From Callorhinchus milii (Eukaryota): a DNA stretch of 64,000 nt. How positions within the stretch are numbered: the first letter of the stretch is position 1; each line of letters begins with the position of its first letter. The notes beneath the pieces were generated by a model. The model was given only the letters and a program-made list of their open reading frames with translations, searched no databases and had not been told where the DNA came from. The stretch spans positions 186,001-250,000 of the forward strand of contig NW_024704759.1 of assembly GCF_018977255.1 (NCBI RefSeq), written 5' to 3'. Positions 3,542 through 54,400 of this stretch are shown piece by piece. A program made the translations under genes and the position numbers.

Positions 3542-3545
3542 ATTA

Positions 3546-5715: not shown

Positions 5716-6368
5716 CCCCAACCCAGCTCACTGCTCCCCCAACCCTGCTCACTGCTCCCCCAACCCTGCTCACTGCCCCCCCAACCCTGCTCACTGCCCC
5801 CCCAACCCTGCTCACTGCCCCCCCAACCCTGCTCACTGCACCCCCAACCCTGCTCACTGCCCCCTGTATCTCAGTGGTTAGAGCACTCGCTTTGCAAGCG
5901 AGAGACCTGAGTTCAATTCCAGGCAGAGGGCAAAACCTTGGGCAAGTTTCCTTACTCCACACAGAGCCCTAATAATAATCCCTCCAAAAGACCAAAAACA
6001 ATAATAAATTGGTCATTTTCAATCCACGACTGTTTGTGGGACATTGCTGTGTGCAATTGGCTGCCGCGTTCGCCCACAAATAGACAGTCAATTCACTTTA
6101 CAGTGTGTTCTGTGAAGCGCTTTGGGACGTCCTCGCGACGTGAAAAGCACTATATCAAATGCAAGGATTATTATTATTAAACCCTGCTCACTGCCCCCCC
6201 AACCGTGCTCACTGCCCCCCAACCCTGCTCACTGCCCCCCCCAACTGTGCTCACTGCCCCCCCAACCCTGCTCACTGCCCCCCCAACCCTGCTCACCGCG
6301 CCCCCAACCCTGCTCACTGCCCCCCCAACCCTGCTCACTGCCCCCCCAACCCTGCTCACTGCCCCCCA
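5716..6368. repeat. 21-bp minisatellite (CCCCCCAACCCTGCTCACTGC)n split by a SINE
   Basis: About 7 units at 5716-5864 and about 9 units at 6179-6368. Confidence 0.92.
5864..6178 (+). mobile_element. tRNA-derived SINE inserted in the minisatellite
   Basis: Near-identical to 409-731, slightly 5'-trimmed, (ATT)n tail. Confidence 0.9.
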
Positions 6369-6430
6369 GCCCAGAGCCCAGCTCAGCTGTTGACCCAGGG
6401 TTTGAACCGCTGATTTCTTCCTCTTTCTTC

Positions 6431-8195
6431 CTGGAGCTGAGGATGAGGCTGGAGCTGAGGCTGGAGCTGGAGCTGAGGCTGAGGCTGGAGCTGAGGCTGG
6501 AGCTGGAGCTGGAGCTGAGGCTGGAGCTGGAGCTGAGGCTGGAGCTGGAGCTGAGGCTGAGGCTGGAGCTGAGGCTGGAGCTGAGGCTGGGGCTGAGGCT
6601 GGAGCTGAGGCTGGAGCTGAGGCTGGAGCTGGAGCTGGAGCTGAGGCTGGAGCTGAGGCTGAGGCTGGAGCTGAGGCTGAGGCTGAGGCTGGAGCTGGAG
6701 CTGAGGCTGAGGCTGGAGCTGAGGCTGAGGCTGGAGCTGGAGATGGAGCTGAGGCTGGAGCTGAGGCTGGAGCTGGGCTGGAGCTGAGGCTGAGGCTGGA
6801 GCTGAGGCTGAGGCTGGAGCTGAGGCTGGAGCTGAGGCTGGAGCTGGAGCTGAGGCTGAGGCTGGAGCTGAGGCTGAGGCTGAGGCTGGAGCTGAGGCTG
6901 GAGCTGAGGCTGGAGCTGAGGCTGAGGCTGGAGCTGAGGCTGGAGCTGAGGCTGAGGCTGGAGCTGAGGCTGGAGCTGAGGCTGAGGCTGGAGCTGGAGC
7001 TGAGGCTGGAGCTGAGGCTGAGGCTGGAGCTGAGGCTGGAGCTGAGGCTGAGGCTGGAGCTGAGGCTGAGGCTGGAGCTGGAGCTGAGGCTGAGGCTGGA
7101 GCTGAGGCTGAGGCTGAGGCTGGAGCTGAGGCTGAGGCTGGAGCCGAGGCTGAGGCTGAGGCTGGAGCCGAGGCTGAGGCTGGAGCTGGAGCTGAGGCTG
7201 GAGCCGAGGCTGAGGCTGAGGCTGGAGCTGAGGCTGGAGCCGAGGCTGAGGCTGAGGCTGGAGCCGAGGCTGGAGCTGAGGCTGAGGCTGGAGCTGGAGC
7301 TGAGGCTGAGGCTGAGGCTGGAGCTGAGGCTGGAGCTGAGGCTGAGGCTGGAGCTGAGGCTGAGGCTGAGGCTGAGGCTGGAGCTGAGGCTGAGGCTGGA
7401 GCTGAGGCTGGAGCTGAGGCTGAGGCTGGAGCTGAGGCTGAGGCTGAGGCTGGAGCTGAGGCTGAGGCTGAGGCTGGAGCTGAGGCTGAGGCTGAGGCTG
7501 AGGCTGGAGCTGGAGCTGAGGCTGGAGCTGAGGCTGAGGCTGGAGCTGAGGCTGGAGCTGGAGCTGAGGCTGAGGCTGGAGCTGAGGCTGAGGCTGGAGC
7601 TGAGGCTGAGGCTGGAGCCGAGGCTGAGGCTGAGGCTGGAGCCGAGGCTGAGGCTGGAGCCGAGGCTGAGGCTGAGGCTGGAGCCGAGGCTGAGGCTGGA
7701 GCTGGAGCTGAGGCTGGAGCCGAGGCTGAGGCTGAGGCTGGAGCTGAGGCTGGAGCCGAGGCTGAGGCTGAGGCTGGAGCCGAGGCTGAGGCTGAGGCTG
7801 GAGCTGAGGCTGAGGCTGGAGCCGAGGCTGAGGCTGGAGCTGGAGCTGAGGCTGGAGCCGAGGCTGAGGCTGAGGCTGGAGCCGAGGCTGAGGCTGAGGC
7901 TGGAGCTGAGGCTGAGGCTGGAGCTGGAGCTGAGGCTGGAGCTGAGGCTGGAGCTGGAGCTGAGGCTGGAGCTGGAGCTGAGGCTGGAGCTGGAGCTGAG
8001 GCTGGAGCTGAGGCTGAGGCTGAGGCTGGAGCTGAGGCTGAGGCTGGAGCCGAGGCTGAGGCTGAGGCTGGAGCTGAGGCTGAGGCTGGAGCCGAGGCTG
8101 AGGCTGAGGCTGGAGCTGAGGCTGGAGCCGAGGCTGAGGCTGGAGCTGAGGCTGAGGCTGAGGCTGGAGCTGAGGCTGAGGCTGAGGCTGGAGCC
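6431..8195. repeat. About 1.76-kb hexamer array of GAGCTG/AGGCTG/GAGCCG units
   Basis: Directly visible; it produces the long low-complexity ORFs (QP, SL, LELR). Confidence 0.95.
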
Positions 8196-8199
8196 GGTG

Positions 8200-8345
8200 T
8201 CGGTGTCTGACAAAATCAAACAAAGGTCGGAGCCGCTCCTCGGGCGCCAACGGATTCTCCAGCAATAGCCAATCGGAACGCTTGAGGAGCGGCTCCAGAG
8301 GTGGACTCTGATCCGCTCCCATTCAAATTGGCCAAATTTAAATGA
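8200..8345 (-). promoter_or_regulatory. Putative FAM110A promoter
   Basis: CpG-rich patch with CCAAT boxes (8269 plus strand, about 8328 minus strand) and TTTAAAT, directly upstream of the arrays leading to the FAM110A ATG. Confidence 0.45.
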
Positions 8346-8789
8346 TCACAGGGTCAGCACCAGAACATCTCACCTCCTGAATACACAACCTCTTGAAGAA
8401 AATTGTAAAATAAAAGCTAACCTTATGTGCTAAATTAGAAATATTAAAGCAACACTTTCCATTGAATTAAGATCCACCGAGGAAAAGCAAATCAATTATT
8501 TCTGAACCCCAAATCCTTGCATTGCATCTAATTGGCCAACAACATTCACAAATTATATAGAAATACCTATACCTCATTGAGATTTAATATATCTGCCATG
8601 TATGGGCAAGCATAAAACGTTATTTTTTTACACATTACACATCAATTGCCAATTCACCCACATCCCCATATTTTCAAACTTTGTCTATAATACACAATAA
8701 CGACACCTCGCAGAAACATTGCAAAACACGTTGAAACATTTTCAATGCAACAGGGGCTACATAAATACAATTTATTGTTCTTGATATAA

Positions 8790-9990: not shown

Positions 9991-10059
9991 GAAGACAGTA
10001 AAAGCATTTGTATCTGAAACCCTAGAACTAGTATGACTCTCTCATAATTTTATGGGTCT

Positions 10060-10450
10060 GACACATATGGAAACCCATTACCAGGGCTGGAAATTTCCTG
10101 AGTTCTCCCAGGAATGGTTCCTAAACACCCCCATGAATGGCTCCCAATGCTTACTGGTAAAACATCCATGTGCTTATGCTTTTTGTGTCCCCACATGAAT
10201 CAGCATTCCATTTTACCTGAAAATCTCTAGCCCTTTCAGGGAGCCAGTGCACCGCTGCCCATCACCATGCTTAAGAGTAGCCAAACCATACTAGTGAGGT
10301 CCATATATGTAGCCACCTACACATAAAAACTTCCCTGTGTCTGGAGGACTGGAAAGCCCTAACCTATTAAGGCTTTGGTTTATAGGGTTAACAGGAGCTC
10401 AGTGGGAAGAATCCCTGCTTCCAGTGGCTGAATCCCTGCTACCATTCTAA
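10060..10450 (+). repeat. Unclassified old interspersed repeat
   Basis: Motif CCCATCACCATGCTTAAGAG...TTCCCTGTGTCTGGA recurs at about 31815-31910, and inverted at about 54555-54655 and about 62680-62770. Confidence 0.55.
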
Positions 10451-10862: not shown

Positions 10863-12265
10863 ACAACAACAACATTACATTTACACAATGCCTTTCACTT
10901 CGGGAGGACGTCCGAAGGCATGGACGGTCAGTGTTGCGGACCCAAGCTGGGGTTCGGGATTGTGGAGGGTGGAGGGCAGTAGGGAAGGAGGGTGATCAAA
11001 AGCATGGTCGAAGAGGAGGGTCTTGAGATGGGTCTTGAAGGAGGCAAGCGAGGGGGCGGGATGGAGTTCTAGAGGGTGGGGGCAGAGTGGCAGAACGCCT
11101 GCTCGCCAATAGTGGGGCAGGCGAGGCGGGTGACGTGAAGCAGGTCGGAGCCTAGTGAGTGGAGGGAGCAGGCAGGATGGAATGGGGTTAGGAAGTCACA
11201 GAAGTAGGGGGGAGCGAGGCCATTGAGGGCTTTGAAGGTGAGGACTAGGATCTTGCACTGTATCCTCTGTGTATTGGGAAGCCAGTGAAGTCAGGTAAGG
11301 ATGGGGTTGATAGGGTCAGAGAGCCTGGTGTAGGAGAGGACATGGGCTGCAGTGTTCTGGCTGATCTGCAGCTCATGGGGGGAAGAGTTGGGAAGGCCAA
11401 CAAGTAGGAAGTTGGCATAGATGTGATGAATGCGTGGATAAGGGTTTTCAGCGGCCTGAGGGGTGAGGCAGTTTTGGAACTGGGCAATGTTGCAGAGTTG
11501 TGGGTAGGCATGGATGTGGGGTAGAAAGGATAGTTGAGGGTCAAACAAAACGCCAAGGTTCCAGACTGGCTTAATAAGGTGGAGTGTGCATCCATGGATG
11601 GTGATGCTGTCAGCGCGCCTGAGGTGTAGAGGCGCTGATGGGAGGCAATCAGGTGGACCTTGGTCTTGTTGACATTCACCTGAAGAAAGTTACCTCTCAT
11701 CCAGGACTTGATGTCTGACAGACATTCTGTCATGACAGCCGTGGTTCTGGAGTCAAGGGTGGAGGTAGAGTAGTACAGTTGGGTGTGTTCTGCAAACATG
11801 TGGAAATTGACCCCATGTCTGCGGATGATGTAACGAAGAGGGAGCATATAGATATTGAAGAGGAGGGGACCGAGGACAGAGCCCTGAGGAACATTGCACA
11901 AGATAGCACGGGGGCTAGAGGGGAAACCATTTGTGGAGATGAAATGGAGGTGTTGTGACAGATAGAATCTGAACCATTCAAGGACAGAACCATGAAGGTT
12001 GAGGTGGGAGGAGAGGCGATGGATGAGTTTAGAGTGGTCAACAGTGTCGAAGGCAGCAGAGTGGTCAAGAAGGATGAGAAGGCAGTTCGACAAAATGTCA
12101 TTTGTCACTTTGACCAGGGTTTCTGTTTCTGTGCTGTGGGCGGCAAGGAAACCTGATTAGAGGGGTTCATGAGGGGAGCGGCGGGAGAGGAAGAAGCGAA
12201 GCAACGACTCCAGTATGTTGGAGAGGAAAGGGGGTTTGGAGGTGGGGTGTAGTTTGAGAACAGGA
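10863..12265 (-). mobile_element. L2 LINE fragment
   Basis: 287-aa RT remnant ([28 protein letters not shown]) and an L2 tail. Confidence 0.9.
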
Positions 12266-12564
12266 AAGGCAGAGTTGTGAATAACTCTTTCAGAGAGATA
12301 GAAAATTGTCTGTCATATTCGTCTTGAAATTATTAGTCACACTTTAGAAACTTGTGAAGCGATTTGAGATGTTCTCGACGTTTTTAGGCAACGTTTTTCT
12401 ATATGCGTTGCAAATATTATCATTATTTAGTGCAATGTTGCATAAAGATACATAAATAGAAAAGGTAATGGAAGGCAAATGTAAATGGTTGTCAGTTTTA
12501 TTTAACATCTGCATAAAAAGTATCACGGGTTATATTTATAATTGATGCATTAATTGCTAACCAG

Positions 12565-12663
12565 TAACTCGAGACGGAAGGTTCAGGGAGAGGCACCGGA
12601 ACCCGAAGCTGCGCCGAGTGCTGTCCGGCGGACACTCAGTCTGTGACACCGCAACATGGCGGC
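12565..12663 (+). promoter_or_regulatory. NSFL1C CpG-rich promoter/5' UTR
   Basis: ETS-like CGGAAG/CCGGAA sites; YY1-like AACATGGCGGC overlapping the ATG. Confidence 0.55.
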
Positions 12664-15600
12664 TGCTTCGCAACAAGAAGCGATACGCGAGTTTGTGTCG
12701 GTGACGGGAGCGGCGGAGGAGCGGGCGCGGCTGTACCTGGAGTCTGCGGGGGGCGACCTGCAGGTGAGGGGGCGCTGGGGTTCCTCCCTGAGGCGCGAGT
12801 CCGGGCTCTGGGGCGAGGCTCCGGGCGCAGCTGAGTCACGGATCGGCGCAGGTTAGTTGCGGCCTCAGGATCGGCGCCTGAGACACTGTTGGGCTGAGAG
12901 CAGCGACTCGGCAATGAAGTGCAGCCTCTGCGCCGCTGTCCCTTATTGCTGTCGGTGACCTGCGGTAAGGATGAGGCGCGGCGGGGGCTCGGGCGGGGCG
13001 GGGGCTCGGGCGGGGCGGGGGCTCGGGCGGGGCGGGGGCTCGGGCGGGGCGGGGGCTCGGGCGGGGCGGGGGCTCGGGCGGGGCGGGGGCTCGGGCGGCG
13101 GGGGGCGGGCGGGGGCCTCGGGCGGCCGGGCTCGCCCTGGAGCCTGAAGGTTGTTGGACTTTATAAATAATCATTGCAGTTGACTTAATGCCTTATGTCT
13201 TCGCGACATAAATCCCGTGTAGTTATTTGAAACATCCTTCCGATGTGAAAGGTCTTATTTCAAATATTTTATTATAATTATTTCAGGGAGAATGTGCTGG
13301 ATATTCAGACACAAACCGCTACAGTTGTGCGATGATTGGGAGAACAACACACAAATGCTTGAAACATTTAATGTTGTGGTGTTGACGAATAACCAACAAC
13401 TGTGACTCAAGGTTTCAGTGGGTATCATGTCGAGTTACCTGCACGTCTTGGTACTGCTCCTGGTGTCACCTTAGCTCAGTTTATAATGCTCTCTTGCCTG
13501 TGAGTCTGAAGGATGTGAGTTTATGCACCATGTCAGGATTTGAACTGGTAGTCCAAGCTGTGTGGGAGTGGGGGGGAGTACTTTATAGTTGTGGAATGTT
13601 ACCCTGCATTAAGGGTGCTATATAAATTGCAAATAGTTTTTATAGTTGGAGGTTCGTGTGAGATGTTAAACCAAGATCCAGATAAATTGGCTCCTCACTT
13701 TGCTGACTGTTGGATTTGCCCACAAATACTCAGTCAACAACAACTTGCAACTTGTGCCCCTCACGCAGGGTGGTGGTGGTGGAGCTCAACCTCGAGCCAC
13801 GTGGAGGGGGAGGTGACCGTAGGCACAGTTGAAAAAGAAGATCTTCAGGCGCAACCAGAAGATGGGGAATGAAGGGTCAAGACGGAGGGATAGAGGAAGC
13901 GTGTTCCACAGTTCCAGAGTTTCGGGGCGTAGTGGCTGAAAGCACGGCTGCCAATGGTGGAACGGAAGGCATGAGGGACACGCAGAAGGCTGGAGCCAGT
14001 CGCGTGGAGGCAGCGGGTTGGGGGTTAAGCAGGTCGGAGAGGGCATGAAGGGAGTGTGAGAATCTTGAAATCGACCAGTTCGGCGATAGGGAGCCAGTGG
14101 AGCTAGGCTAGAACTGGTGTGATTGGGGTACGGAGTTTAGTGTGGGTTTTGGATCAGTTGGATCCTGTGCATGGTGGAGCTGGGGAGACTGTGGATGAAG
14201 GAGGAGATGCGGCGTAGGAGGATGGCGATCAGGAGGCTGAGGGAGCCCTGGTCACAGAGATAGAGGACATTTGTGACCTTGACAAGCGCTGTCTCTGGGC
14301 TGTGGGCAGGGCAGAAACCAGTTTGGAGAGGCTCGAGGAGGGAGTGGAGGGAGATGTGAGAGCAAAGCTGGACATCGCGTTCCAGAGCTTTGGCAAGGAA
14401 CAGCAGGTTGGAAATGGGAGGTTGGAGTGGTCATGGGTGGGTTTTTTGAGGAGGGGAGTGTTGACAGCGGTTTTAAGAGGTGGGGAGGAACAGAACCTGA
14501 GGAGAGCGACTGGTTGACTGTGTTGGCCAGTAGCAGGGAGAGGAGAGGGAGTCGCACTGGACAGCAGTTAGGAGCTTTGACTTTGCAGGCATTGATTGCA
14601 TCTAATGCAATTATTAGGAGTCCTGTAGCTCAGTGGTTAGAGCACTCAGCTCACAGGGCGAAACCTTGGGCAACTTTGCTTATTCCACACGCTTAATAAT
14701 AATCCCTCAAGAGAGAAAAAAAATTGGTCACTTCAATCCATGACTGTTTGTGGGACACAGCTGCTGTGCACAATTGGCTGCTGTGTTTTGCCCACAAATA
14801 TACAGTCAATTCACTTTATACTCTGTATATTCTGTGAAGTGCTTTGAAACATCTAGAAGATGCAAGGATTGTTATTTATTTATTATTATTTGATACCGAG
14901 TCTTAGGCCTCCTGAAGTAGCATATTCGATATCCTTAACTCTTTGTGAAAAGACATGGTTTTAGTTTCACTTTTAAACGAGACTTCCTGTAGCAGAAATT
15001 GTATGCGTTCTGGGAAGGGATTTGTAATATATATCAGCGGATGTTGGGCAGCGGTGACTCTTGTTTCTGGTGTTACAGCTGGCATTGGGTAGTTTCTATG
15101 AAGATGGAGGTGATGATGATGTGATCACTTTGCCACAGCCAGAGACAGGCCCAGGTCCTAGGAGTACGGCACCCAGGTGAGAATTATGGATCTCCAGCAT
15201 TCATAACTTTGCTGATTCAGATTTGAATTGAATTTGAATATTTGAATATTTGAATATTGTCTTTTATATTTATATAAGAAACACTTTACTGATTTGTTGG
15301 TTCCTGTTTGATAGGTGAGTTCCCTCGGTTTCTGCATTTAAGCAGCCGAGCTTCTTGGTGAACACAGACATAGAATCCAACAGACTCATCACTCTATTAA
15401 AACTGTGGAGCCTGCATGAGTTCTTACGCACACTTTCCAATAGTCATTAGATAATGATCAGGAAATCTTGATTGGCACTGTGCCACAAGTAAGCAGTTGG
15501 AATATCTTCAAATTGTTTTTTTTTAAACTGAGGCCAAAGGCTTTTGTGGGCATGATGTAACTCCTTCCTCAATGTCCTATTAATTGCGCATCAGTGATGT

Positions 15601-31605: not shown

Positions 31606-31663
31606 ACTTTGTTTGTGGGGAATATAGTTTTTCACAAGATAACTTTTTGAATCTACGCTACAC

Positions 31664-32346
31664 AATTTGTTGTTGCCACTTTTTCCAAGTACAATAATAA
31701 ACAGGATGCAATCAATAAGCAATCAATAATCAATAAAACCTCAGAATTTTTACTATGACCTGCCATGTATTAGATGCCTGGTATTTATTTTGATCATGTG
31801 AGTGTTTCGTACATGCAGAAACCCATCACCATGCTTAAGAGAATGGAAACCAGACAGAGATCTACATTTGAATACTAGTTACACATGGAAATTTCCCTGT
31901 GTCTGGAATGGAATGTGCATTCTCATGAGAGAAGGATCCTGCTTAACTCATTTCTGAGGCGATTAGGCACAGATTGCTGACAGGAAAGGCTGGGAGACCC
32001 AGAGTGTGTATTGGGGAAACTGTCGAGTTAACCAAATGGGAAGAATCCCTGCTCCCAGTCTACCTCTCCAAGTCCTCCTGATGAGCTTGGTTGTGTCATC
32101 TATCATCAGCAGTGCCTTAGAGTACAGCAAACCTGTCTACCTCAGGAACTGAACTAGAGACCACCACAGATGGTTGCCTCGGTTCTGACATTTCGTTGTG
32201 TACTGTGTCACCTTGGAACAGCTCAGCTTGAAAGAAACTGCACTTTCCCTGCACCCTCCAGAGGACAGATAGGTAAGTATAAGGAGATTCCACACTCCTA
32301 GCTTTGTAAATAATTAAATCATCCCCCTCTACCTGACACAAAATTG
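31664..32346 (+). repeat. 683-bp segment, copy 1 of an inverted duplication
   Basis: Reverse complement of 62239-62921; one mismatch seen. Confidence 0.93.
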
Positions 32347-32399
32347 TTAATTGTACAACTGAAGCGTTGCGTTTCTCATCAAAGACGCACATTCTCATT

Positions 32400-34972
32400 G
32401 GCTCTCCCCCCCCCCCCCCCCCCCCCCCCCGGGCTCCCCCCCCCCCCCCCGGGCTCCCCCCCCCCCCCCGGGCTCCCCCCCCCCGGGCTCCCTCCCCCCG
32501 GGCTCCCTCCCCCCCCCCCCGGGCTCTCCTCCCCCCCCCCCCCCGGGCTCTCCTCCCCCCCCCCCCGGGCTCTCCCCCCCCCCCCCCCCCCCCCCCCCCG
32601 GGCTCTCCTCCCCCCCCCCCCCGGGCTCTCCTCCCCCCCCCCCCCCGGGCTCTCCTCCCCCCCCCCCCCCGGGCTCTCCTCCCCCCCCCCGGGCTCTCCC
32701 TCCCCCCGGGCTCTCCTCCCCCGGGCTCTCCTCCCCCCCCCCCGGGCTCTCCTCCCCCCCCCCCGGCCTCCTCCCCCCCCCCCGGGCTCTCCTCCCCACC
32801 CCCCCCGGGCTCTCCTCCCCCCCCCCCCCGGGCTCTCCTCCCCCCCCCCGGGCTCTCCTCCCCCCCCCCGGGCTCTCCTCCCCCCCCCCGGGCTCTCCTC
32901 CCCCCCCCCCCGGGCTCTCCTCCCCCCCCCCCGGGCTCTCCTCCCCCCCCCCCCGGGCTCTCCTCCCCCCCCCCCCCGGGCTCTCCTCCCCCCCCCCCCC
33001 GGGCTCTCCTCCCCCCCCCCCCCCCGGGCTCTCCTCCCCCCCCCCGGGCTCTCCTTCCCCCCCCCCCGGGCTCTCCTTCCCCCCCCCCCGGGCTCTCCTC
33101 CCCCCCCCCCCCGGGCTCTCCTCCCCCCCCCCCCGGGCTCTCCTCCCCCCCCCCCGGGCTCTCCTCCCCCCCCCCCGGGCTTCCTTCCCCCCCCCCCGGG
33201 CTCTCCTCCCCCCCCCCGGGCTCTCCTCCGCCCCCCCCCCGGGCTCTCCTTCCCCCCCCGGGCTCTCCTTCCCCCCCCCGGGCTCTCCTCCCCCCCCGGC
33301 TCTCCTCCCCCCCCCCCGGGCTCTCCTCCCCCCCCCCCCGGGCTCTCCTCCCCCCCCCCCCGGGCTCTCCTCCCCCCCCCCCCCCCCCGGGCTCTCCTTC
33401 CCCCCCCCCCCGGGCTCTCCTCCCCCCCCCCCCCGGGCTCTCCTCCCCCCCCCCCCCGGGCTCTCCTCCCCCCCCGGGCTCTCCTCCCCCCCCCCCCGGG
33501 CTCTCCTCCCCCCCCCCCCGGGCTCTCCTCCCCCCCCCCCGGGCTCTCCTCCCCCCGGGCTCTCCTTCCCCCCCCCCGGGCTCTCCTCCCCCCCCCCGGG
33601 CTCTCCTCCCCCCCCCCCCCGGGCTCTCCTCCCCCCCCCCCGGGCTCTCCTCCCCCCCCCCCCCCCCGGGCTCTCCTCCCCCCCCCCCCCGGGCTCTCCT
33701 CCCCCCCCCCCCGGGCTCTCCCCCCCCCCGGGCTCTCCTCCCCCCCCCCCGGGCTCCCCCCCCCCCCCGGGCTCCCTCCCCCCCCCCGGGCTCTCCTCCC
33801 CCCCCCCCCCCCCCCCCCCCCCCGGGCTCTCCTTCCCCCCCCGGGCTCTCCTTCCCCCCCCCGGGCTCTCCTTCCCCCCCCCGGGCTCTCCCCCACCCCG
33901 GGCTCTCCTCCCCCCACCCTCCCCCGGGCTCTCCCCACCCTCCCGGGCTCTCCTTCCCCCCCGGGCTCTCCCACACCCTCTCGGGCTCTCACACACCCCC
34001 CTCGGGCTCTCCCCCACCCCCCGGGCTCTCCCCCCCCCCCCCGGGCTCTCCCTACCCCCCGGGACTCTCCCCTACCCCCCCGGGACTCTCCCCTACCCCC
34101 GGGCTCTCCCCTACCCCCCGGGCTCTCCCTACCCCCCCGGGCTCTCCCCTACCCCCCCGGGCTCTCCTCCCCCCCCCCCCGGGCTCTCCTCCCCCCCCCC
34201 CCGGGCTCTCCTCCCCCCCCGGGCTCTCCTCCCCCCCCCGGGCTCTCCTTCCCCCCCGGGCTCTCCTCCCCCCCCCCCCCCGGGCTCTCCCCTCCCCCCC
34301 GGGCTCTCCCCTACCCCCCGGGCTCTCCCCTACCCCCCCGGGCTCTCCCCTACCCCCCGGGCTCTCCCCTACCCCCGGGCTCTCCCTACCCCCCGGGCTC
34401 TCTTCCCCCCCGGGCTCTCTTCCCCCCCGGGCTCTCTTCCCCCCGGGCTCTCCCCTACCCCCCCCAAGTCTCTCCTCCCCCCCCCGAGGCTCTCCCCCCC
34501 CCTCCCGAGGCTCTTCCCCCCCCTCCCGGGCTCTCCCCCCCCCCCCCCGGGCTCTCCCCCCCCTCCCGGCTCTCCCCCCCCCCCCGGGGCTCTCCCCCCC
34601 CTCCCGGGCTCTCCCCCCCCCCCGGGGCTCTCCCCCCCCTCCCGGGCTCCCCCCCCCCCGGGGCTCTCCCCCCCGGGCTCTCCCCCCCCCACCCCGGGGC
34701 TCTCCCCCCCCCCCCCCGGGCTTCCCCCCCCCACCCCGGGCTCTCCCCCCCCCCCACCCCCGGGGCTCTCCCCCCCCTCCCGGGCTCTCCCCCCACCCCC
34801 GGGGCTCTCCCCCCCCCCCACCCCCGGGGCTCTCCCCCCCGGGGCTCTCCCCCCCCCACCCCGGGGCTCTCCCCCCGGGACTCTCCCCCCCCCACCCCGG
34901 GGCTCTCCCCCGGGGCTCTCCCCCCCACCCCGGGGCTCTCCCCCCCCCCCACCCCCGGGGCTCTCCCCCCCA
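32400..34972. repeat. About 2.6-kb C-rich minisatellite (CCGGGCTCTCCTCn)n
   Basis: Directly visible; variable C-run length, with unit variants drifting along the array. Confidence 0.95.
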
Positions 34973-35113
34973 TCAGGACATGGCCGCGGTGCCCGGGGCC
35001 GTGACGCTGGTGAGTGGCGGCTCTCGATCACAATCCTGCGCTGTGACGCCGTCGAGACACCGACTCTGCCTCAGAGAGAGCAGCGGCCGATTACACACAG
35101 CGGAGCCTCTGGG

Positions 35114-38100
35114 ATGGGGTTTGCGGGGCGGGACCTGTTGCGGGAAAAGGAGGAGGAAGAGGAGGACAGCGGGGACTCGGTGTTGGTCCGGCAGGTGACT
35201 CTGGGGGGCTGCGGGGGGCCACTCTGGGGGCTGCGGGGGGCCACTCTGGGGGGCTGCGGGGGGCCACTCTGGGGGCTGCGGGGGGCCACTCTGGGGGCTG
35301 CGGGGGCCACTCTGGGGGCTGCGGGGGGCCACTCTGGGGGGCTGCGGGGGCCACTCTGGGGGGCTGCGGGGGGCCACTCTGGGGGGCTGCGGGGGGCCAC
35401 TCTGGGGGCTGCGGGGGGCCACTCTGGGGGGCTGGGGGGGCCACTCTGGGGGGCGGGGCCACTCTGGGGGCTGCGGGGGGCCACTCTGGGGGGCTGCGGG
35501 GGCCACTCTGGGGGGCTGCGGGGGGCCACTCTGGGGGCTGCGGGGGGCCACTCTGGGGGCTGCGGGGGCCACTCTGGGGGCTGCGGGGGCCACTCTGGGG
35601 GGCTGGGGGGGCACTCTGGGGGGCTGGGGGGGCACTCTGGGGGCTGGGGGGGGCACTCTGGGGGCTGGGGGGGCACTCTGGGGGGCTGGGGGGGCACTCT
35701 GGGGGGCTGGGGGGGGGCACTCTGGGGGGCTGGGGGGGCACTCTGGGGGGCTGGGGGGGGGCACTCTGGGGGGCTGGGGGGGGGCACTCTGGGGGCTGGG
35801 GGGGGGCACTCTGGGGGGCTGGGGGGGGGGCACTCTGGGGGGCTGGGGGGGGGGGCACTCTGGGGGGCTGCTTGTGCACTGTCCTTCAGGACTGCCGAAG
35901 AGGGCATTCTGGTTGTTTTCACTTATTGATAAGGTCCAAATGTAAGTCAAGATTGAGTCTCTCCCTCCCTCCCTCCCCAGATTACACCCCAACACTGCCC
36001 TCCCCGCCGCAATACCACCCGGATTCCCTGTATCGGCACCGCTTGGATCCTCAGCCTCTCCATCCTTTTACTTTTTCCACAGAAGCAGAAGGCTGAATCA
36101 TTATCTGTCTGCAGGAAGCTGTGCTTTGCCATGGGTGGGGCCCCCTATCAGATGACAGGAAACGCCATTGGCTTCTTCTTACAGATCTTCCTCCTGGATG
36201 TGGTTCAGGTATGAACTTCACACTAAACATCAGATGGGAGTCCAGAGTCTGACAATCACTTTGAATGAGAAGGTGTTGGCTTGACTCAGTTGCAATGTTT
36301 CCACTTTCCAAGTCAGATGGTTGTGCGGTTAAACTCCTCGTCAGGACTTTGAACTCACAGTCCAGTCTTACACTGCAATGCAGTGTTGGGCTACTGTTTT
36401 GTGTTAGGGTGTTATCCTTTGCAGGACATGTTCAGGCCCAGTCTGTCTGTTCAAATGGATGTCAAAGATTCCATGTCACTATTTGAAAATAGAAGGAACT
36501 TTCTCCTGATGCTCTCGACAACAATCCTCCAGGTAAGATTAGTCATTCACTTCATGACCACTGCAGGATATTGGATATTGTTGTGGGGGCTGCGGGGGCC
36601 ACTCTGGGGGGCTGCTTGAGCACTGTCCTTCAGGACTGCCGAAGAGGCATTCTGATCATTTTCTCTTATTGATAAGGTCCGAATGTAAGTCAAGATTGCG
36701 TCCCTCCCTCCCTCCCTCCCCAGGTTACACCCCCAACACCTCCCTCCCCGCCGCAATACCACCCAGATTCCCTGTATCCAGCTTGGCTCCTCAGCCTCTT
36801 CATCCCTGACTTTTAACGTAACATAACATGTAAGGGCCATTCGACCCTTCGAGCCTTCCCCGCCATTCAATCATGGCTCACCTTCTAATCTAACTCCAAC
36901 TAATAACCTGGCCCTGCCTTATCCGCATATCCCTTAATTACTTTTTCCACAGAAGCAGAAGGCTCCATTGCAACAGAGTCAAGCCAACACCTTTTCATTC
37001 AAACTCCACTTGAGTATCCACCAACTCCTTATTTCCTCCCAAAGAAGTTCCCATAACTTCTATTCCCTTCTCCCTCATGTATATTTTGCTTCCTCGTAAA
37101 TGTAATCGTACTATCTGATTTAACCACTGCACTGTCAGACAGCAAATTCCATATTCTCACTTCCTACTGCATGAAATAGTTCCTCCTAAATTCTCTTTTA
37201 GATCCCCTAGTTGTTATCTTAGATTCGAGTACCCTAGTTACAGACCCCCCCATACCAACAATTAGGAAAAGAGTCTCTCTCTCTCTCTCTCCCTCTCGCT
37301 CGCTTCCACTTTCTTCTTCTCTAATAGGAACATAGGAACAGGAGTAGGTCTTTCAGCCCCTCGAACCTGTTCCAGCATTCTATAAGATCACGGCTGATCT
37401 GCACCTCAACTCCAATTACCCACCCTTTACCCGTATCCCTTGATACCCTTACCTAACAAATATCTATCCACCTCAGTCTTGAAAATTTTAATGGATCCAA
37501 CATTCACAGCCTCTTGGGACAGAGAGTTCCAGATTTCCACTACCAGGAGGCAGAAATCAGGAGGCAGCGATCAACTCCTAATTAGGAACTGAATGTGGCA
37601 ACAATATTCATGCATTGTAAATTTAAGGAGATTTCACATGACAAGAAAGCAGTATAGATAGTGATTGTATGTACGATTCCAGATTATCTTTCTGTTGCAG
37701 ATGGAGGCTTTCTATGCAAGTCTGATTCTCTTCACGGGCCGTGTGTGGGATGCTTTCACAGATCCCATTGTTGGATTCCTTGTCAGCAAAAGCAGAAGAA
37801 CCAGATTTGGGAAGTTGCTGCCTTGGTGAGTTTGCGTGAGACACCCTGGGGTTGAGTCGGAGGATATCGGGGTAAACTCTATTGGATGCTCTTCATCAAA
37901 AGAGTACATTCATTATTCATCAAATGCATTCATTATATTTAAAGCCAGATAGACCAGAAAGTTTCTGATTTCAAAGCTACAAATGGCCGTAGTGCCCCCT
38001 GGGTTAGGAGGCAGAAAAATAGCCAAGTTTATGCTCCTGCTTATTATCTAAAGACTTCCTTTCTCCCCTTTGGTGGTAGGTGTTATGTGATGTGGTACCT

Positions 38101-48976: not shown

Positions 48977-50839
48977 GGAACACTTTATCAGCTGCAACGT
49001 CAGGTTCCTGAATTGGTGCCGTATTAGAGTGGAACCGATTTGCTTATCTGAACTTGAAGTGCACCACATGGAACTCAGTTACACAAAATGTCAGTAAAAC
49101 CAACAACTACATGGACCTCAATAAATCACAAATCCTTTCTATCCATTCTTAATGAGATGGCTGTGCTAGAAAATAAAGAGGCATGAATTAGTTTTCTAAC
49201 TAAATCAATTTGTTATGTTTTATTAAATTCTCATGGAGGACAATCATCCTGAACTGATGCTACATCTAATCTATCACCTCCACAATATTGTCCATTTACA
49301 CCCTATCTTACTATGGCTGCTGTAAATCTTCATGTCCAGAAGAGATTTCCCCAATCTGGAATGTTGCTCTGCATTTAGCATACATTAACTCAGGACAGAC
49401 CAACCTTTTGGCTGCCGTGGGCTGGATTCCCTATTTGAGAAAGGTCCGCAGGTCGCATCCAGCAAGTGGAAGTTGGAATGATGGAAATGGTCGCGGGCCG
49501 GATAAAGTTATCGTTGGACCACACTGCGTAACTCATCCCAAACCCATTCCTAATTCACACCTGAAATTCCTAGCCATATTTGGCTCACTACCTACTCACT
49601 ATCATTCTGGTTTGCTTCTGTCCCACTTCCTCTGCTTACTCTGTGGAGGCTAAGTTCACCCTGGTAGTGGGGATTGTGCCTCAGGATATTGACTGTGAGA
49701 CAAAAATGCACATTTGTATAAATGTGGTAATTTGTATAATGGAACATATTTCATTAGTCTCAATTTTCAAAAAGATTTTTTTAATAGATTTTTGGAAGCA
49801 TTTTCCTGGTTGTTATTACAATGACTTCTGACAAACAACTTTCTCACCTTGAATCCTCATTGCCCACAACCAGCCGATTATTGAAACAGATTTATTAAAA
49901 AATGTAATTATTTCTGGCATTAAGAGTTTTGCAGCAATCTCTGTTGCATTAATCAGCATTAAACGTATTGTAAATTACTCTTCATGAATTTCAAGATTTA
50001 TCATTTCTAATACAACTTCTTGTGGCAGCAAAGAACTACATACAAGATAAGAACATAAGAATTTGCTAGGCTAAAGAAGACTAAGGTGCATCTAGTTTGT
50101 CTTCCACCATCCTGGCAGTTGCTGGACAGGCTATGTCCCAAACGATATACTGTATCCTGAGATATTATTTTCTAGCAGAAATCTATTTAATTTGTTCTTG
50201 AAACAAATGACATTTTCTACTTGCACTGTTTCCCTAGTGAGCCTGTCCGATTAATTTATTAAGATGAGTACACTCTGTATTTGGGGGTGTAGCAATATTA
50301 AGTCCTTGTTCTAATGTTTAAATCTTTTCAGTCTTATCTCTTCTCATCAATGACTTGTCCTCTATTTCTCCCATTTGTTCTCTCTCCTCTTCTAACTTTG
50401 GTCTACTGTTCGCACCTCCTTCTGTCCCAGTGAATAAATCTTCAGTGCATCGCTACATTGCACCCTGATCTATCTTGTGTCTCTTTAACTCTCTTTTACA
50501 ATCTCTCTTTGACTACCTTTGGTCAAATCCTCAAACTGTCATCAATGGGGGATTCCCCTTGTGTCTGTAAACAATTTCCAGACATTCATCCTATTGTGGA
50601 AGTCGTTATGTAAGTGTGTGTTTATTGACAGTAAGTTTAGCGGAGGAGAGATTCCTGCAGAGAAATATGCATCCGAACAGCAAGTGACGTCAACATGAAA
50701 GAGAGAGACAAAGGGCTGAGCTGCTGAGCTATGGTGAGAGCGATGGTGACGGCGACAATGCTGGTGATGATGACGGCGATGATGATGATGGTGATAGTGA
50801 TGATGGTGATGTAGACACTGACAGCCTCTTCAACAACAG

Positions 50840-51020
50840 CCAGATTGGATCCCACTCATAGCTGCACCAATCACAGCACTCGTAGCTAAGCCAATCACCG
50901 GGCTCGGGGCTGGCCAATCACTGCGCTCGAAGTTGAACCAATCAAAGCGCTCAATCTGAAACAGGATCTACATCCGGGAACTGAAGCTGTAACGGTTGTG
51001 AGCTGATTGGTTAAAATACC
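50840..51020 (+). promoter_or_regulatory. FKBP1A promoter with clustered CCAAT boxes; CRE palindrome upstream at 50685
   Basis: CCAAT at 50867, 50891, 50914 and 50938; ATTGG at 50844 and 51006; TGACGTCA at 50685-50692. Confidence 0.7.
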
Positions 51021-51046
51021 GTTATCACCGCGCGACTCGGGCCCAA

Positions 51047-51457
51047 CCCTCAGCCCTCAGCCCCGAGCCCTCGGCCTCAGCCCCGAGCCCTCAGCCCCGA
51101 GCCCTCGGCCTCAGCCCCGAGCCCTCAGCCCCGAGCCCTCGGCCCCGAGCCCTCGGCCTCAGCCCCGAGCCCTCGGCCTCAGCCCCGAGCCCTCGGCCTC
51201 AGCCCCGAGCCCTCAGCCCCGAGCCCTCGGCCCCGAGCCCTCGGCCTCAGCCCCGAGCCCTCAGCCCCGAGCCCTCAGCCCCGAGCCCTCGGCCTCAGCC
51301 CCGAGCCCTCGGCCTCAGCCCCGAGCCCTCAGCCCCGAGCCCTCAGCCCCGAGCCCTCGGCCTCAGCCCCGGGCCCTCGGCCTCAGCCCCGAGCCCTCGG
51401 CCTCAGCCCCGAGCCCTCAGCCCTCAGCCCTCGGCCTCAGCCCTCAGCCCTCAGCCC
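51047..51457 (+). repeat. C-rich array of CCTCAGC/CCCGAGC/CCTCGG units in the probable FKBP1A 5' UTR
   Basis: Lies between the CCAAT cluster and the ATG. Confidence 0.9.
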
Positions 51458-51475
51458 AGACATAACAGCACAGCG

Positions 51476-54400
51476 ATGGGAGTGCAGGTCGAAACCATCG
51501 CTCCGGGGGACGGTAAGAGATTGACTGGACAGCGGTGTGGGGACGGCTTAATGGCGGTTCTGGCGGGGGCTCCGATAGTCTTAGGCCCCGAGGCCTGGGG
51601 TTCGCAGATGGAAGCCGGGATGTTGCGGGCGGGCGAGCGGGCGGCGGGTGGCCGGGCGGGCGGGCGGGCGAGCGGGCGGCGGGTGGCCGGGCGGGCGGGC
51701 GAGCGGGCGGCGGGTGGCCGGGCGGGCGGGCGGGCGAGCGGGCGGCGGGTGGCCGGGCGGGTGGCCGGGCGGGCGGGCGGGCCGGGGCGGGCGGCGGGTG
51801 GCCGGGCGGCCGGGCGGGCGGGCGGGCCGGGGCGGGCGGCGGGTGGCCCGGGGGGGGGGGCGGGCGCGGGGGCGCGGCCTGGACTAAACTCCGCTTGTTT
51901 TCCAGGACGGACTTTTCCTAAGAAGCAGCAGCGCTGTGTGGTTCACTATGTGGGTGAGTGACGCGCGGCTGTTGGCGACACCAGAGGGGGTCCGATCAGC
52001 AACAATAACAGCGGCGACAGCGCGTGTTCCGGTGGGAGGGGGTCCGGGTCTGAGACTCAGAGCCATGTTCGGTGCCGCCGGGAGGGCCCCGACCACATGT
52101 GCTGTTCTTCATCAAAGTGAGAATCAGTGTAGCGCACTCTGTACAATATATTACACTTAATATTCCCGGTGACAACGGGGACGATCCTCAATTACACAAA
52201 GTTTGAAGCAAACCACACAGAATAAAAGTCTATGGAGAGCCTATTAACGCTGTGGGGGGGGGGGGGCGGCACTGCCCGGCGGGAGCAGCCGGTGGTGGAG
52301 CGGCACTGCCCGGCGGGAGCAGCCGGTGGTGGAGCGGCACTGCCCGGCGGGAGCAGCGGATATCTGCAACTCTTGACAGTGAATATCAGCGCTTACAGTC
52401 CAGTTCCTGTTCCCTGTGTTTGACAATCTCGGTGCTGAGTCTGGGAACCAGATTGAGTTCTGTTTCTTTGACAGATGTTACTTGGGGAGTTACTGAATAT
52501 GTTTAATTTGGATACGAATGTTAACTGTTGTGCCCAGAATTATATAATTACACTTTCAGTAATAACTTGTGCCAGATATCTGAAGCATATATTCAGTTGG
52601 ACCCCTTTATAGTGTAGTGGTTGGGTCTATAAAATCACGTTATAGCATTATAAAAATATCGCCAGTCAGCTTTCTCTGAGACGAGCTGTTTTCGAGTGGT
52701 AGAGACCAACTGTTATCCTTGGGAGAGGAGATAAACCAGGTGAGGAGTTTCTCAAGAGCCCCTTTTTTGGTAAATACATCGTGGAATGAAATGAAAAATG
52801 TATAAACTGACATAAAACAAAAAAGCCAACTGCCATTGCCTGCTGAGTCTTCTAGAACTCAGTCATACTGGTGTACCACTTTCCCCCCATATAAGCCGGA
52901 GATGGAGAAGTGTTGATGTGGAGAAGAGGTGTAAATGTGATAAAAAGAAATAAAACATTTTTAATGGATAAAGTAAAACATGAAATTCCTGAAAAGTATG
53001 ACTGTATTTTGTGGGTGAATGGAGCAGCTAGTCTCCCACAACAATTTCCCACAAACAGCCATGAAGTGAGTACCTGTTTTTGTTTGGGACAGTGCTCTGC
53101 ATCAATTGCCTGGTGTACTCACAAAGACAAAGTCATTACACTTTTTGATCATTCCTGTTAAGCGTTTTAAGATGTTTTGACGAAATGGTAATGCACAGCA
53201 GTGAATTCTGTGAAGCACTTTGAGACATCTCGAAGACATGACAAAGTACTATATCAAATCCAAGAATTATTATTGCATCAAATGTGAAGATTATTATTTA
53301 TGGTCATCCAACATTGGGAATCTTTTATTTTTCTCACTCCTGAACATACAATTTGTCCTGCGGTACAGTTTCATTCGAGTGAGTAGCACCTTGCTCAAAT
53401 GGCTTTCACAGTGAGTGTGAATAGGCTGTTTTACTATAGCAGTTTATTGCCAATCCTAGCATAACAGCACTTTCCAACGTAGTGATATTCTCTCTCTCTC
53501 CATATCCACAAGTGTAAACACCAATTGTAGCATTCCCAGCACACTGATGGTGGTCACGCACCCAAATGAAACATCTGGAAATGGAGGGAACCATGTAATC
53601 ACGGAAGATACTGATAACATTCAAGTTTACTCCCCTAGCATTACTGGTATATATCTTGTGTGAAAGCAACTATATAAATGTAAAGTATTGTTCTACACAC
53701 TATTAAAAGAACAAGATTGGTGCTGCTGGGTTTCAGGATATCTGTATTTAGTTCCCAAAAGAGGGGTAAGGGGAGCTGCCTTAAAACAGAGTGAATGACC
53801 GAGATTGTGACAGCGATAATGTGCGAAAAGTTCCAGCGAGGAATAGTTCTGCTTCAATCCAAAGTGGCCACCAAAATAGAAGCAATAGAAAGAAGCATTA
53901 TAAGTTTTAATGTTCGGGTGTTTCTATGGGGTTGACAAATGTCAGTTGACATGCAACATTTCCATTTACTGACATCTTGCGCTTTACCAACAGGAACACT
54001 GCTAGATGGATCTCAGTTTGATTCCTCTCGTGACAGAGGCAAGCCATTTGCATTTGTAATGGGTCGACGAGAAGTCATCAGAGGCTGGGAAGAAGGAGTG
54101 TCTCAGGTAAAATCGCAGCTTCTCTAGTCTTCTCCTTTTTCAGGATGCTGACCATTGAATGGCCTTGGTGCTCGAGTGCTCATAATAATCCTTGCATCTG
54201 ATATAGCGCCTTATCATATCTTCGAGATGTCTCAAAGCGTTCCATAATTATTCTTCCTTGAAGAGTGAGAAGTCGGAACTGAGGTTAGATATTGTTCAGT
54301 TCATGTGTTTTCTTAGTAACCACGTGACCAGCTGGTGACTTGGCTACAACATGATGTTCTTGGCAGCGGAATGTTAGAATCAAGTCATTCCTCTTGGTTG

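What the first reader, a model, noticed from the sequence alone, without database searches (positions are those of the whole stretch)
5716..51878. Recurrent promoter architecture: C-rich array, first exon, then G-rich array on the sense strand
Seen at different genes with different repeat units. MFSD2-like: C-rich 32400-34972, exon 1, G-rich 35197-35870. FKBP1A: C-rich 51047-51457, exon 1, G-rich 51625-51878. FAM110A (-): C-rich hexamers 8195-6431, short spacer, G-rich 21-mers 6368-5716. NSFL1C has only the G-rich intron-1 array. No comparably large GC-rich arrays lie away from 5' ends. Known: sense-strand G skew favours R-loops/G4 at CpG-island promoters, and intronic G-runs enhance 5' splice sites. 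Inference: a lineage-specific process expands minisatellites at active promoters with fixed polarity, either as a regulatory device or as a by-product of promoter-targeted recombination.
Basis: partly seen in the sequence, partly recalled or inferred. Interest (0 to 1): 0.7.

Follow-up and report, generated by a model that had tools for sequence, protein, structure and literature searches.

The report
Strand-polarised minisatellites at chimaera gene starts
In this stretch of a chimaera (cartilaginous fish) chromosome, four of five genes carry their own long tandem repeats near the gene start, C-rich before and G-rich after, which looks like an oversized version of a strand bias known from human and bird genes and still needs a genome-wide test.

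Summary
The arrays are at the stated coordinates. The window is Callorhinchus milii-type DNA on a 15.2-Mb contig (FAM110A, NSFL1C, MFSD2AL2, FKBP1A, SNPH). They cluster at 5' ends: 6 of 9 GC-rich arrays lie within 500 nt of a gene-start anchor (1.2 expected, p 2.5e-4); 3 of 3 first introns versus 1 of 21 later introns carry one. Units are unrelated between genes and occur nowhere else in the window, so each grew locally.

Three corrections. Only MFSD2AL2 and FKBP1A show C-array/exon 1/G-array. At FAM110A the spacer is not shown to be a first exon: both arrays may lie in the 5' UTR. The putative SNPH 5' CpG island has no large array. New detail: all three C-rich arrays sit between a CCAAT box and the ATG.

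The polarity is already known in humans and birds. Best reading: locally seeded minisatellite growth at unstable 5' CpG islands, amplifying that ordinary bias and resembling avian 'sequence stuttering' but confined to gene starts. Lineage specificity, function and a recombination cause are untested; C. milii PRDM9 status is disputed.

The parts
4694..5713 (-). FAM110A coding sequence, single coding exon, 339 aa
   Evidence: Pfam FAM110_N and FAM110_C; closest named hit C. milii FAM110A
5716..5864 (-). G-rich 21-mer array, proximal block (7 units), ending 2 nt before the FAM110A ATG; each unit holds a GTGAG donor-like motif
   Evidence: the unit's translation also appears in a separate C. milii database model, P0002
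5865..6179 (+). tRNA-derived SINE inserted into the 21-mer array; holds the only two ATGs between 8206 and the FAM110A start codon
   Evidence: Rfam tRNA match 5860-5931; 95% identical to the copy at 415-726; ATG scan
6180..6367 (-). G-rich 21-mer array, distal block (9 units)
6368..6430 (-). 63-nt unique spacer; not shown to be a first exon
6431..8196 (-). C-rich hexamer array (CAGCCT/CAGCTC/CGGCTC, 290 canonical units); no runs of three G, so not G4-forming; the CpG variant is confined to the first 176 units
8200..8349 (-). small CpG cluster (10 CpG, o/e 0.97) with an NF-Y-type CCAAT box at 8267-8275 and a canonical splice acceptor at 8207: promoter, exon boundary or both
12656..12763 (+). 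NSFL1C exon 1 coding part inside a CpG island; no C-rich array upstream
   Evidence: Pfam UBA_4
12975..13130 (+). G-rich 17-mer array of tandem GC boxes in NSFL1C intron 1 (6 identical units, then degenerate)
32395..32403 (+). CCAAT box (reverse orientation) abutting the MFSD2AL2 C-rich array
32405..34970 (+). C-rich about-20-mer array, 123 units in variant domains; meets the LG4 triplet-density threshold on the template strand
34971..35194 (+). unique CpG-rich segment with two CRE-like motifs, an out-of-frame ATG at 34980 and MFSD2AL2 exon 1 coding part (35114-35194)
35195..35871 (+). G-rich 22-mer array starting at the intron-1 donor; proximal units mostly carry a CpG, the last 12 full units do not
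36586..36815 (+). local duplicate of the array end and 3' flank (196 matches, 17 mismatches), keeping a CpG-type terminal unit
50855..51012 (+). FKBP1A CCAAT cluster: degenerate 24-mer x4, each with a CCAAT box, plus a fifth box at 51004-51012
51047..51457 (+). C-rich 7/13-mer array between the CCAAT boxes and the ATG, ending 18 nt before it; no ATG inside
51476..51512 (+). FKBP1A exon 1 coding part
   Evidence: exon 3 matches Pfam FKBP_C
51625..51878 (+). G-rich GGGC-based array filling 65% of the 393-nt FKBP1A intron 1
52266..52357 (+). 34-mer x2.7 in FKBP1A intron 2, mildly G-skewed
61180..61800 (-). putative SNPH 5' CpG island and exon 1 (donor about 61508, my inference): the counter-example without a large array
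   Evidence: SNPH identity by Pfam Syntaphilin

Best explanation
These are gene-private GC-rich minisatellites that grew in place from short motifs already present at the 5' ends of genes on a small, gene-dense holocephalan chromosome. Step 1 (shown): the arrays are confined to gene starts and each unit is unique to its locus. Step 2 (shown): they turned over by block duplication, with variant domains and growth after a local duplication. Step 3 (inferred): the unmethylated, transcribed 5' CpG island is the unstable substrate; stalled forks, R-loops/G4 or double-strand breaks there are repaired by slippage and conversion-type events that add units. Step 4 (inferred): the polarity needs no dedicated mechanism. 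It is inherited from the usual vertebrate bias of the seeds (C-rich sense strand around the promoter and 5' UTR, G-rich at the start of intron 1) and kept by a filter: an array between promoter and ATG is tolerated best when it is C-rich, ATG-free and weakly folded, whereas G-runs are tolerated in intron 1. The arrays are mostly tolerated passengers that can still shift expression, because they push the CCAAT box 0.4-2.6 kb from the start codon.
For: Placement: 6 of 9 arrays within 500 nt, p 2.5e-4; clusters 4 of 5, p 0.004; first versus later introns 3/3 vs 1/21, p 0.002. Local origin: 0 shared 12-mers (two-letter words excluded) in 21 array pairs; 7 of 7 units found only in their own array; units contain or start at local elements (GC boxes, the intron-1 donor, CCAAT boxes). 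Turnover: longest repeated block in the hexamer code is 24 units vs 13.4 in shuffles, 0 of 1000 reaching it; MFSD2AL2 variant classes form 57 runs vs 91, 0 of 20000; the intron-1 duplicate keeps a CpG-type end that the present array lacks. GC richness and skew alone are not enough: four LINE-like segments (5.9 kb, 52-58% GC, skew 0.42-0.48) hold no TRF array over 40 nt. A CCAAT consensus lies within 80 nt upstream of 3 of 3 C-rich arrays and 0 of 5 G-rich ones tested; 1.7% of positions qualify by chance. The C-rich arrays have 0 ATG and fold less than their inverses (-25 vs -55, -34 vs -64, -38 vs -46 kcal/mol per 100 nt). Unique intron-1 sequence is already G-skewed (+0.19, +0.36, +0.33). The same polarity is known in humans and birds; C. 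milii TSSs of expressed genes are hypomethylated (PMC5437953); short chimaera chromosomes are richer in tandem repeats (PMC12952989).
Against: One window, five genes, thresholds set after looking. No TSS is mapped, so 'upstream' versus '5' UTR' is inferred. SNPH has a CpG island but no large array. The unique sequence just upstream of the four array-bearing starts is not C-skewed (+0.01 to +0.04; only the far side of the MFSD2AL2 array is -0.20), so the C-rich seed bias is not visible here. The FAM110A proximal 21-mers are G-rich, G4-capable and abut the ATG, against the 5' UTR filter. The FAM110A hexamer array has no G3 runs, so G4 is not a common driver. The folding asymmetry follows from G-U pairing and G4 in any such sequence and does not show selection; absence of ATG is expected from the units' composition. 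Copy numbers rest on one consensus sequence.
Confidence: 0.55

Rival explanations
1. Specifically a meiotic by-product: with a weak or non-directing PRDM9, recombination hotspots sit at promoter CpG islands, and repeated break repair there expands minisatellites. This is a narrower version of step 3 of the best explanation.
For: C. milii PRDM9 was scored KRAB-SET without SSXRD, with no rapid zinc-finger evolution, and was the sole putative ortholog not detected in testis RNA-seq (PMC5519329 passages). Microchromosomes are described as highly recombining (PMC8302630); the window's proteins lie on a 15.16-Mb contig. Meiotic gene conversion is one mechanism proposed for avian stuttering (PMC12954441).
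Against: A later study counts the same PRDM9 as complete (PMC8892340). No recombination map was seen. Recombination alone does not predict strand polarity. In birds, which lack PRDM9, stuttering is described across the introns of dot chromosomes, not as a promoter feature.
Confidence: 0.2
2. Selected regulatory device: C-rich arrays supply multimerised Sp/KLF/MAZ-type sites or template-strand G4, and G-rich intron arrays promote R-loops, pausing or 5' splice-site use, so selection favours expansion.
For: NSFL1C and FKBP1A G-arrays contain 9 and 19 GC-box matches. G4 motifs at the start of intron 1 correlate with pausing (PMC3130262); positive skew tracks R-loops and unmethylated state (PMC3787257); human promoter VNTRs can be eQTLs (PMC8096271). 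The MFSD2AL2 C array keeps 124 CpG in 123 units.
Against: Units share nothing between genes; sizes run from 0.15 to 2.6 kb; one gene has only a G array and one has none; a SINE insertion in one array was tolerated; CpG content ranges from o/e 0 to 1.18. No expression or binding data.
Confidence: 0.13
3. Local coincidence: this is an unusually repeat-rich (for example subtelomeric) patch, and FAM110A is not even a promoter case, leaving two full examples that do not generalise.
For: Only 2 of 5 starts show the full layout; the acceptor at 8207 makes FAM110A ambiguous. The nine arrays cover about 10% of the window (6,683 nt including a 315-nt SINE) against 1.76% simple repeats genome-wide by a different method (PMC8302630 supplement), so the window is atypical.
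Against: A general repeat-rich patch would put arrays in later introns and intergenic DNA; 20 of 21 later introns (27.7 kb together) have none.
Confidence: 0.17
4. Assembly or sequencing artefact: arrays invented or inflated by noisy long-read consensus.
For: C-runs in the MFSD2AL2 array vary from 4 to 26 nt. The published chromosome-scale C. milii assembly used CLR reads with Falcon, Quiver and Pilon; I did not establish that the window comes from it.
Against: 1,740 of 1,766 hexamer-array bases are canonical units; variant classes cluster even with C-run length ignored; six NSFL1C units are identical. The database model P0002 contains the 21-mer and the SINE translation. Models P0121 and P0123 lack the real MFSD2AL2 exon 1 and start 16 and 134 nt after the G array, as expected if an array-flanked exon was missing from the sequence they were built on (the cause is my inference; GC-rich first exons are commonly lost, PMC9516821).
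Confidence: 0.05

Closest known systems
Avian 'sequence stuttering' on dot chromosomes (PMC12954441; passages read)
   Same: Locally derived, imperfect, gene-private tandem expansions in GC-rich genic DNA of a small chromosome; hard to assemble; here one array starts at the donor itself.
   Different: Here confined to gene starts (1 of 21 later introns), strand-polarised, with interspersed repeats abundant, and no copied coding-exon fragment noticed. Length polymorphism untested. The authors did not find stuttering outside birds, except in gerbils.
GrIn1 elements, G-rich 5' ends of first introns (PMC3130262; passages read)
   Same: Non-template G4 motifs in intron 1 of NSFL1C, MFSD2AL2 and FKBP1A.
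   Different: GrIn1 is about 100 nt, non-repetitive and within the first 100 nt of the intron. These are 156-677-nt tandem arrays, and two of three start 112 and 211 nt into the intron.
Template-strand G4 excess in 5' UTRs (PMC2577360; bioRxiv 10.1101/2025.10.17.683159; passages read)
   Same: C-rich sense strand before the ATG, G-rich sense strand in introns.
   Different: There it is a statistical 1.3-fold bias of short motifs; here it is 0.4-2.6-kb arrays at neighbouring genes.
Human promoter and first-intron VNTRs such as CSTB upstream and DPYSL4 intron 1 (PMC8096271; passages read)
   Same: Minisatellites enriched within 1 kb upstream of genes and in CpG islands; some act as eQTLs.
   Different: Not described there as paired, polarised arrays at most genes of a region; polymorphism is unknown here.
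LG4, long G4-capable regions (PMC7293029; passages read)
   Same: The MFSD2AL2 C array has up to 252 CCC per 1.5 kb (threshold 121).
   Different: 301 such loci in the human genome, 217 overlapping enhancers; here one sits in a proximal promoter.

Membership tests
Minisatellite VNTR | head-to-tail units of about 6-60 nt with interspersed variants | tested here: met
Minisatellite VNTR | copy number varies among individuals | not testable with these tools
   no reads or second haplotype
Sequence stuttering (avian) | repeat units of local origin, private to each locus | tested here: met
   0 shared 12-mers in 21 pairs; 7 of 7 units only in their own array (within the window only)
Sequence stuttering (avian) | repetitiveness across the introns of a gene | tested here: not met
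   1 of 21 later introns has an array
Sequence stuttering (avian) | extensive intraspecies intron-length variation | not testable with these tools
   needs population long reads
Sequence stuttering (avian) | occasional copies of coding-exon fragments in the flanking intron | not tested
   no exon-versus-intron screen was run; none noticed in the unit listings
GrIn1 element | G4 motif on the non-template strand of intron 1 | tested here: met
   6, 15 and 10 motif matches in NSFL1C, MFSD2AL2 and FKBP1A (my pattern allowed loops up to 12 nt)
GrIn1 element | within the first 100 nt of intron 1 | tested here: inconclusive
   met for MFSD2AL2 (starts about +4); not met for the FKBP1A (+112) and NSFL1C (+211) arrays
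LG4 | at least 121 G- or C-triplets per 1.5 kb | tested here: met
   CCC up to 252 in windows over the MFSD2AL2 C array; GGG up to 142 in windows covering its end and the 22-mer array; no other part of the window qualifies (my non-overlapping count, not the LG4ID program)
LG4 | folds G4 in vitro or in cells | not testable with these tools
   prediction only
Skewed CpG-island promoter (Ginno class I) | CpG island with positive sense-strand skew downstream of the TSS | tested here: inconclusive
   CpG clusters and downstream G skew are present but the TSSs are not mapped
PRDM9-independent promoter hotspot | recombination peak at the CpG island in a species without directing PRDM9 | not testable with these tools
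   literature on C. milii PRDM9 conflicts; no map
Coding repeat (FAM110A hexamer ORF) | the open frame through the array has database counterparts | tested here: not met
   unique N-terminal part: no Pfam family; no hit among 383-1220-aa proteins; only 5 weak multi-stretch hits at 34-44% identity, left unexamined. An exact look-up could not be made

The most novel reading that the evidence does not exclude
Chimaeras have a promoter-restricted, strand-polarised form of sequence stuttering. Across the genome, or at least its microchromosomes, a large share of CpG-island genes carry private 0.2-3-kb minisatellites that expand between the CCAAT box and the ATG (C-rich) and in intron 1 (G-rich), driven by recombination or repair targeted to promoters where PRDM9 is degenerate. 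The arrays would be a sequence record of promoter hotspots and a genome-wide source of cis-regulatory length variation, overlooked because these first exons drop out of older assemblies.
Probability: 0.25. Interest if true: 0.72.

Novelty: new variant of a known kind. Interest (0 to 1): 0.45.

Why it matters
The strand bias is known; its amplification into kb-scale private arrays at 4 of 5 neighbouring gene starts was not found described for chondrichthyans in my searches (a Creative-Commons PMC and bioRxiv library only, listings and selected passages). If general, it would extend sequence stuttering beyond birds and gerbils in a promoter-confined form. It would give a natural test of whether promoter-directed recombination or transcription-linked damage drives minisatellite growth, and of how far a CCAAT box can be moved from a start site. 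It would also warn that first exons and promoters of this reference species are missing or mis-modelled in older gene sets. If not general, it is an extreme but ordinary set of promoter VNTRs.

Tried and rejected
Coding role for the FAM110A hexamer array. All three minus-strand frames are open, but any array of these hexamers is. The unique 43-46 N-terminal residues gave no Pfam match, no hit in a length-limited search and only 5 weak hits (not examined). Rejected as unsupported, not disproved; an exact-sequence look-up could not be made.

One dispersed repeat family behind all arrays: rejected. G4 as the common driver: rejected for the hexamer array, which has no G3 runs. CpG gradients as methylation decay: the hexamer gradient (19 of 19 CpG units in the first 176 of 290; 0 of 20000 shuffles) fits deamination or clonal growth, but the 22-mer loses its CpG without a C-to-T change, so no general claim. 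A shared direction of array growth: no consistent end. A bidirectional NSFL1C/FAM110A promoter: one donor-like site on the minus strand at 12739; neither shown nor excluded. Immunoglobulin switch-region likeness of the hexamer array (AGCT 55 per kb vs 5.3 in the window): a resemblance only. Structured RNA genes: Rfam gave 5 matches, all tRNA-like SINE heads.

Rows dropped before the placement test: TRF arrays with score under 150 (15232, 16270, 18395, 23109, 30342, 50740-50811, 50855-50952, 54697); the two 21-mer halves were merged. In one search my anchors cut MFSD2AL2 exon 6 and FKBP1A exon 3 short; ends were corrected to 41713 and 54106. The cross-vertebrate GC-skew paper (Hartono et al.) was not held and is recalled only. 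No genome-wide C. milii DNA, orthologous promoter DNA, reads or RNA-seq were available; the bacterial, phage and plasmid collections were not used, as irrelevant. Supplements of the bioRxiv bird paper were not seen and may bear on first-intron strand bias.

Full report
Setting. The window encodes FAM110A (-), NSFL1C (+), MFSD2AL2 (+), FKBP1A (+) and SNPH (-). Identities rest on my exon models, Pfam (7 of 9 exon translations matched a family; two MFS_2 matches were below the curated cut-off) and homologue searches. The FAM110A protein's best named hit is a Callorhinchus milii model (91%, the difference lying in model gaps and its N-terminus). An MFSD2AL2 exon is 100% identical to three C. milii models, one a RefSeq protein on a 15,161,263-nt contig, the same length as that listed for the window's own FAM110A protein. 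The DNA is therefore C. milii or a very close relative, on a microchromosome-sized sequence. I did not establish which assembly it comes from. The labels L2, CR1 and NF-Y are recalled, not tool results.

Observation. Sense-strand skew is -0.41 to -0.65 for the three C-rich arrays and +0.43 to +0.73 for the five G-rich blocks. I tested the nine arrays with TRF score of at least 150 (21-mer halves merged; dropped rows are listed under Tried and rejected) against five anchors: four start codons and the putative SNPH first donor. Six of nine lie within 500 nt (1.24 expected, p 2.5e-4), eight of nine within 1 kb (1.94 expected, p 2.5e-5), and four of five gene-level clusters within 500 nt (p 0.004). 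Three of three first introns carry an array against one of 21 later introns (p 0.002). Thresholds were chosen after seeing the data, and this is a single window.

Corrections. Only MFSD2AL2 and FKBP1A have C array, coding exon 1 and intronic G array. NSFL1C has the G array only. SNPH has a CpG-rich 5' region with two micro-arrays of 18 and 28 nt and is a counter-example. FAM110A is ambiguous. A CpG cluster with a CCAAT box lies at 8200-8349, but the best acceptor on that strand is at 8207, 10 nt before the hexamers, and scores like the 24 real acceptors. With the arrays collapsed and the SINE removed, acceptor and ATG would be roughly 110 nt apart, an ordinary coding-exon layout. The G-rich 21-mers end 2 nt before the ATG with no pyrimidine tract, so some of them are in the mRNA. 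Each unit carries a donor-like motif (16 matches), so alternative splicing is possible. The 63-nt spacer is not shown to be a first exon.

New anatomy. All three C-rich arrays begin 1, 34 and 72 nt after a CCAAT consensus. Only 1.7% of positions have one within 80 nt upstream, and none of five G-rich arrays tested does (post hoc). They end 143 nt (MFSD2AL2) and 18 nt (FKBP1A) before the ATG and contain no ATG. They have therefore grown inside the interval between proximal promoter and start codon. At MFSD2AL2, CRE-like motifs, high CpG and a strong out-of-frame ATG at 34980 follow the array, which suggests a TSS downstream of it. At FKBP1A the array spans the likely TSS or is 5' UTR. Both placements are inferences.

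Origin and reality. No 12-mer with three or more letter types is shared in 21 array pairs, and each of seven units occurs only within its own array. Units are built from local elements: tandem GC boxes in NSFL1C, the donor-adjacent sequence in MFSD2AL2, CCAAT boxes in a fourfold 24-mer at FKBP1A. The hexamer array is 98.5% canonical units with a 24-unit repeated block (shuffles 13.4; 0 of 1000 reach it). The MFSD2AL2 array has clustered variant domains even when C-run length is ignored (57 runs vs 91; 0 of 20000). A duplicate of the intron-1 flank, 17 mismatches in 213 aligned bases, keeps a CpG-type terminal unit, whereas the last 12 full units of the present array lack it, which suggests growth after that duplication. 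A SINE 95% identical to another copy splits the 21-mer array. A separate C. milii model contains translations of that SINE and 21-mer, and two other models miss MFSD2AL2 exon 1 and start just after its G array, as expected if an array-flanked exon had dropped out (PMC9516821, passages). Against precision: C-runs of 4-26 nt in the MFSD2AL2 array may be partly noise, since the published chromosome-scale assembly is CLR-based (PMC12952989 passages; PMC8302630 supplement search).

Mechanism. GC-rich, skewed DNA away from gene starts does not carry arrays: four LINE-like segments totalling 5.9 kb at 52-58% GC and skew 0.42-0.48 hold none over 40 nt. Something about the 5' end therefore matters. I infer that it is the unmethylated, transcribed CpG island (C. 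milii TSS hypomethylation: PMC5437953, passages), where forks stall and breaks form and are repaired by slippage or conversion. G4 cannot be the only trigger, because the hexamer array has no G3 runs. The polarity matches known biases: G4 motifs on the non-template strand at the start of intron 1 in about half of human genes (PMC3130262, passages); a 1.3-fold excess of C-rich motifs in 5' UTRs (PMC2577360, passages); positive skew and R-loops after the TSS (PMC3787257, passages); template-strand G4 in UTRs and coding-strand G4 in introns of birds (bioRxiv 10.1101/2025.10.17.683159, passages). Unique intron-1 sequence here is G-skewed (+0.19, +0.36, +0.33), but unique upstream sequence is not C-skewed (+0.01 to +0.04 at four starts), so seed bias explains the G side better than the C side. 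A filter could supply the rest: the C-rich arrays fold less than their inverses as RNA. That asymmetry is generic, and the FAM110A 21-mers contradict it.

Rivals. Promoter-directed meiotic recombination is attractive because C. milii PRDM9 lacks SSXRD, evolves slowly and was not seen in testis RNA (PMC5519329, passages), but it is counted complete elsewhere (PMC8892340, passages) and would not by itself set polarity. A selected device has motif-level plausibility (human promoter VNTR eQTLs: PMC8096271, passages) but no shared unit, size or presence. A local oddity remains possible: the arrays cover about 10% of the window against 1.76% simple repeats genome-wide (different method). Artefact is unlikely for existence and possible for exact length.

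Comparison and novelty. It works like avian sequence stuttering (PMC12954441, passages) in local origin and chromosome type, but fails that phenomenon's gene-wide intron criterion, and polymorphism is untested, so I do not file it there. The MFSD2AL2 C array meets the LG4 density threshold (252 vs 121; PMC7293029, passages). The G arrays are GrIn1-like but larger, and two start beyond the 100-nt window. Seven literature searches aimed at this pattern listed no report of polarised promoter minisatellites in chondrichthyans; the library lacks most subscription papers. PMC3466250 (passages) shows that capped 5' ESTs exist for mapping the TSSs.

Verdict. A real, partly overstated observation. The polarity is known; the size, density and confinement to gene starts in a chimaera appear undescribed and can be tested directly with public data. 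New variant of a known kind; interest 0.45.

Noticed in passing
window 31664-32346 and 62239-62921: 683-nt inverted pair with one mismatch, 29.9 kb apart; each copy lies just upstream of a gene start (MFSD2AL2, putative SNPH) in the same relative orientation. Older 74-76% partial copies lie at 54557-54650 and 10258-10345; no clear target-site duplication. Young repeat, gene conversion or inversion breakpoint.
   Followed up: partly
window 36586-36960: Local duplicate of the 3' part of MFSD2AL2 intron 1, including an acceptor-like copy now in intron 2; could act as a cryptic splice site.
   Followed up: partly
window 50740-50952: Upstream of FKBP1A: a degenerate GAT-type array and a 24-mer x4 array that multiplies the CCAAT box itself.
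   Followed up: partly
window 57396-57506: In-frame 18-mer x6 inside the last SNPH coding exon, giving a Gly/Glu-rich six-residue repeat; G-rich on the sense strand.
   Followed up: no
window 6431-8194: AGCT density 55 per kb versus 5.3 in the window, with G skew on the + strand: a superficial likeness to immunoglobulin switch regions (comparison recalled).
   Followed up: no
window 34980: ATG in strong context, out of frame with MFSD2AL2; it would act as an overlapping upstream ORF if the TSS lies before it.
   Followed up: no
window 18600-20900: DNA-transposon remnant with a broken transposase-like reading frame in NSFL1C intron 3 (seen; hAT-like by recall).
   Followed up: no
window 2330-4640, 10900-12300, 16060-18460, 25010-29150: LINE-like remnants (L2- and CR1-like by recall) account for most kb-scale GC skew away from promoters, with sign set by their orientation; skew alone does not mark promoters here.
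   Followed up: partly
window 54987-55103: Likely intron in the FKBP1A 3' UTR, about 10 nt after the stop codon (read).
   Followed up: no
database models P0002, P0121, P0123: These C. milii models have spurious N-termini made of SINE, repeat or intron sequence at exactly these loci.
   Followed up: partly
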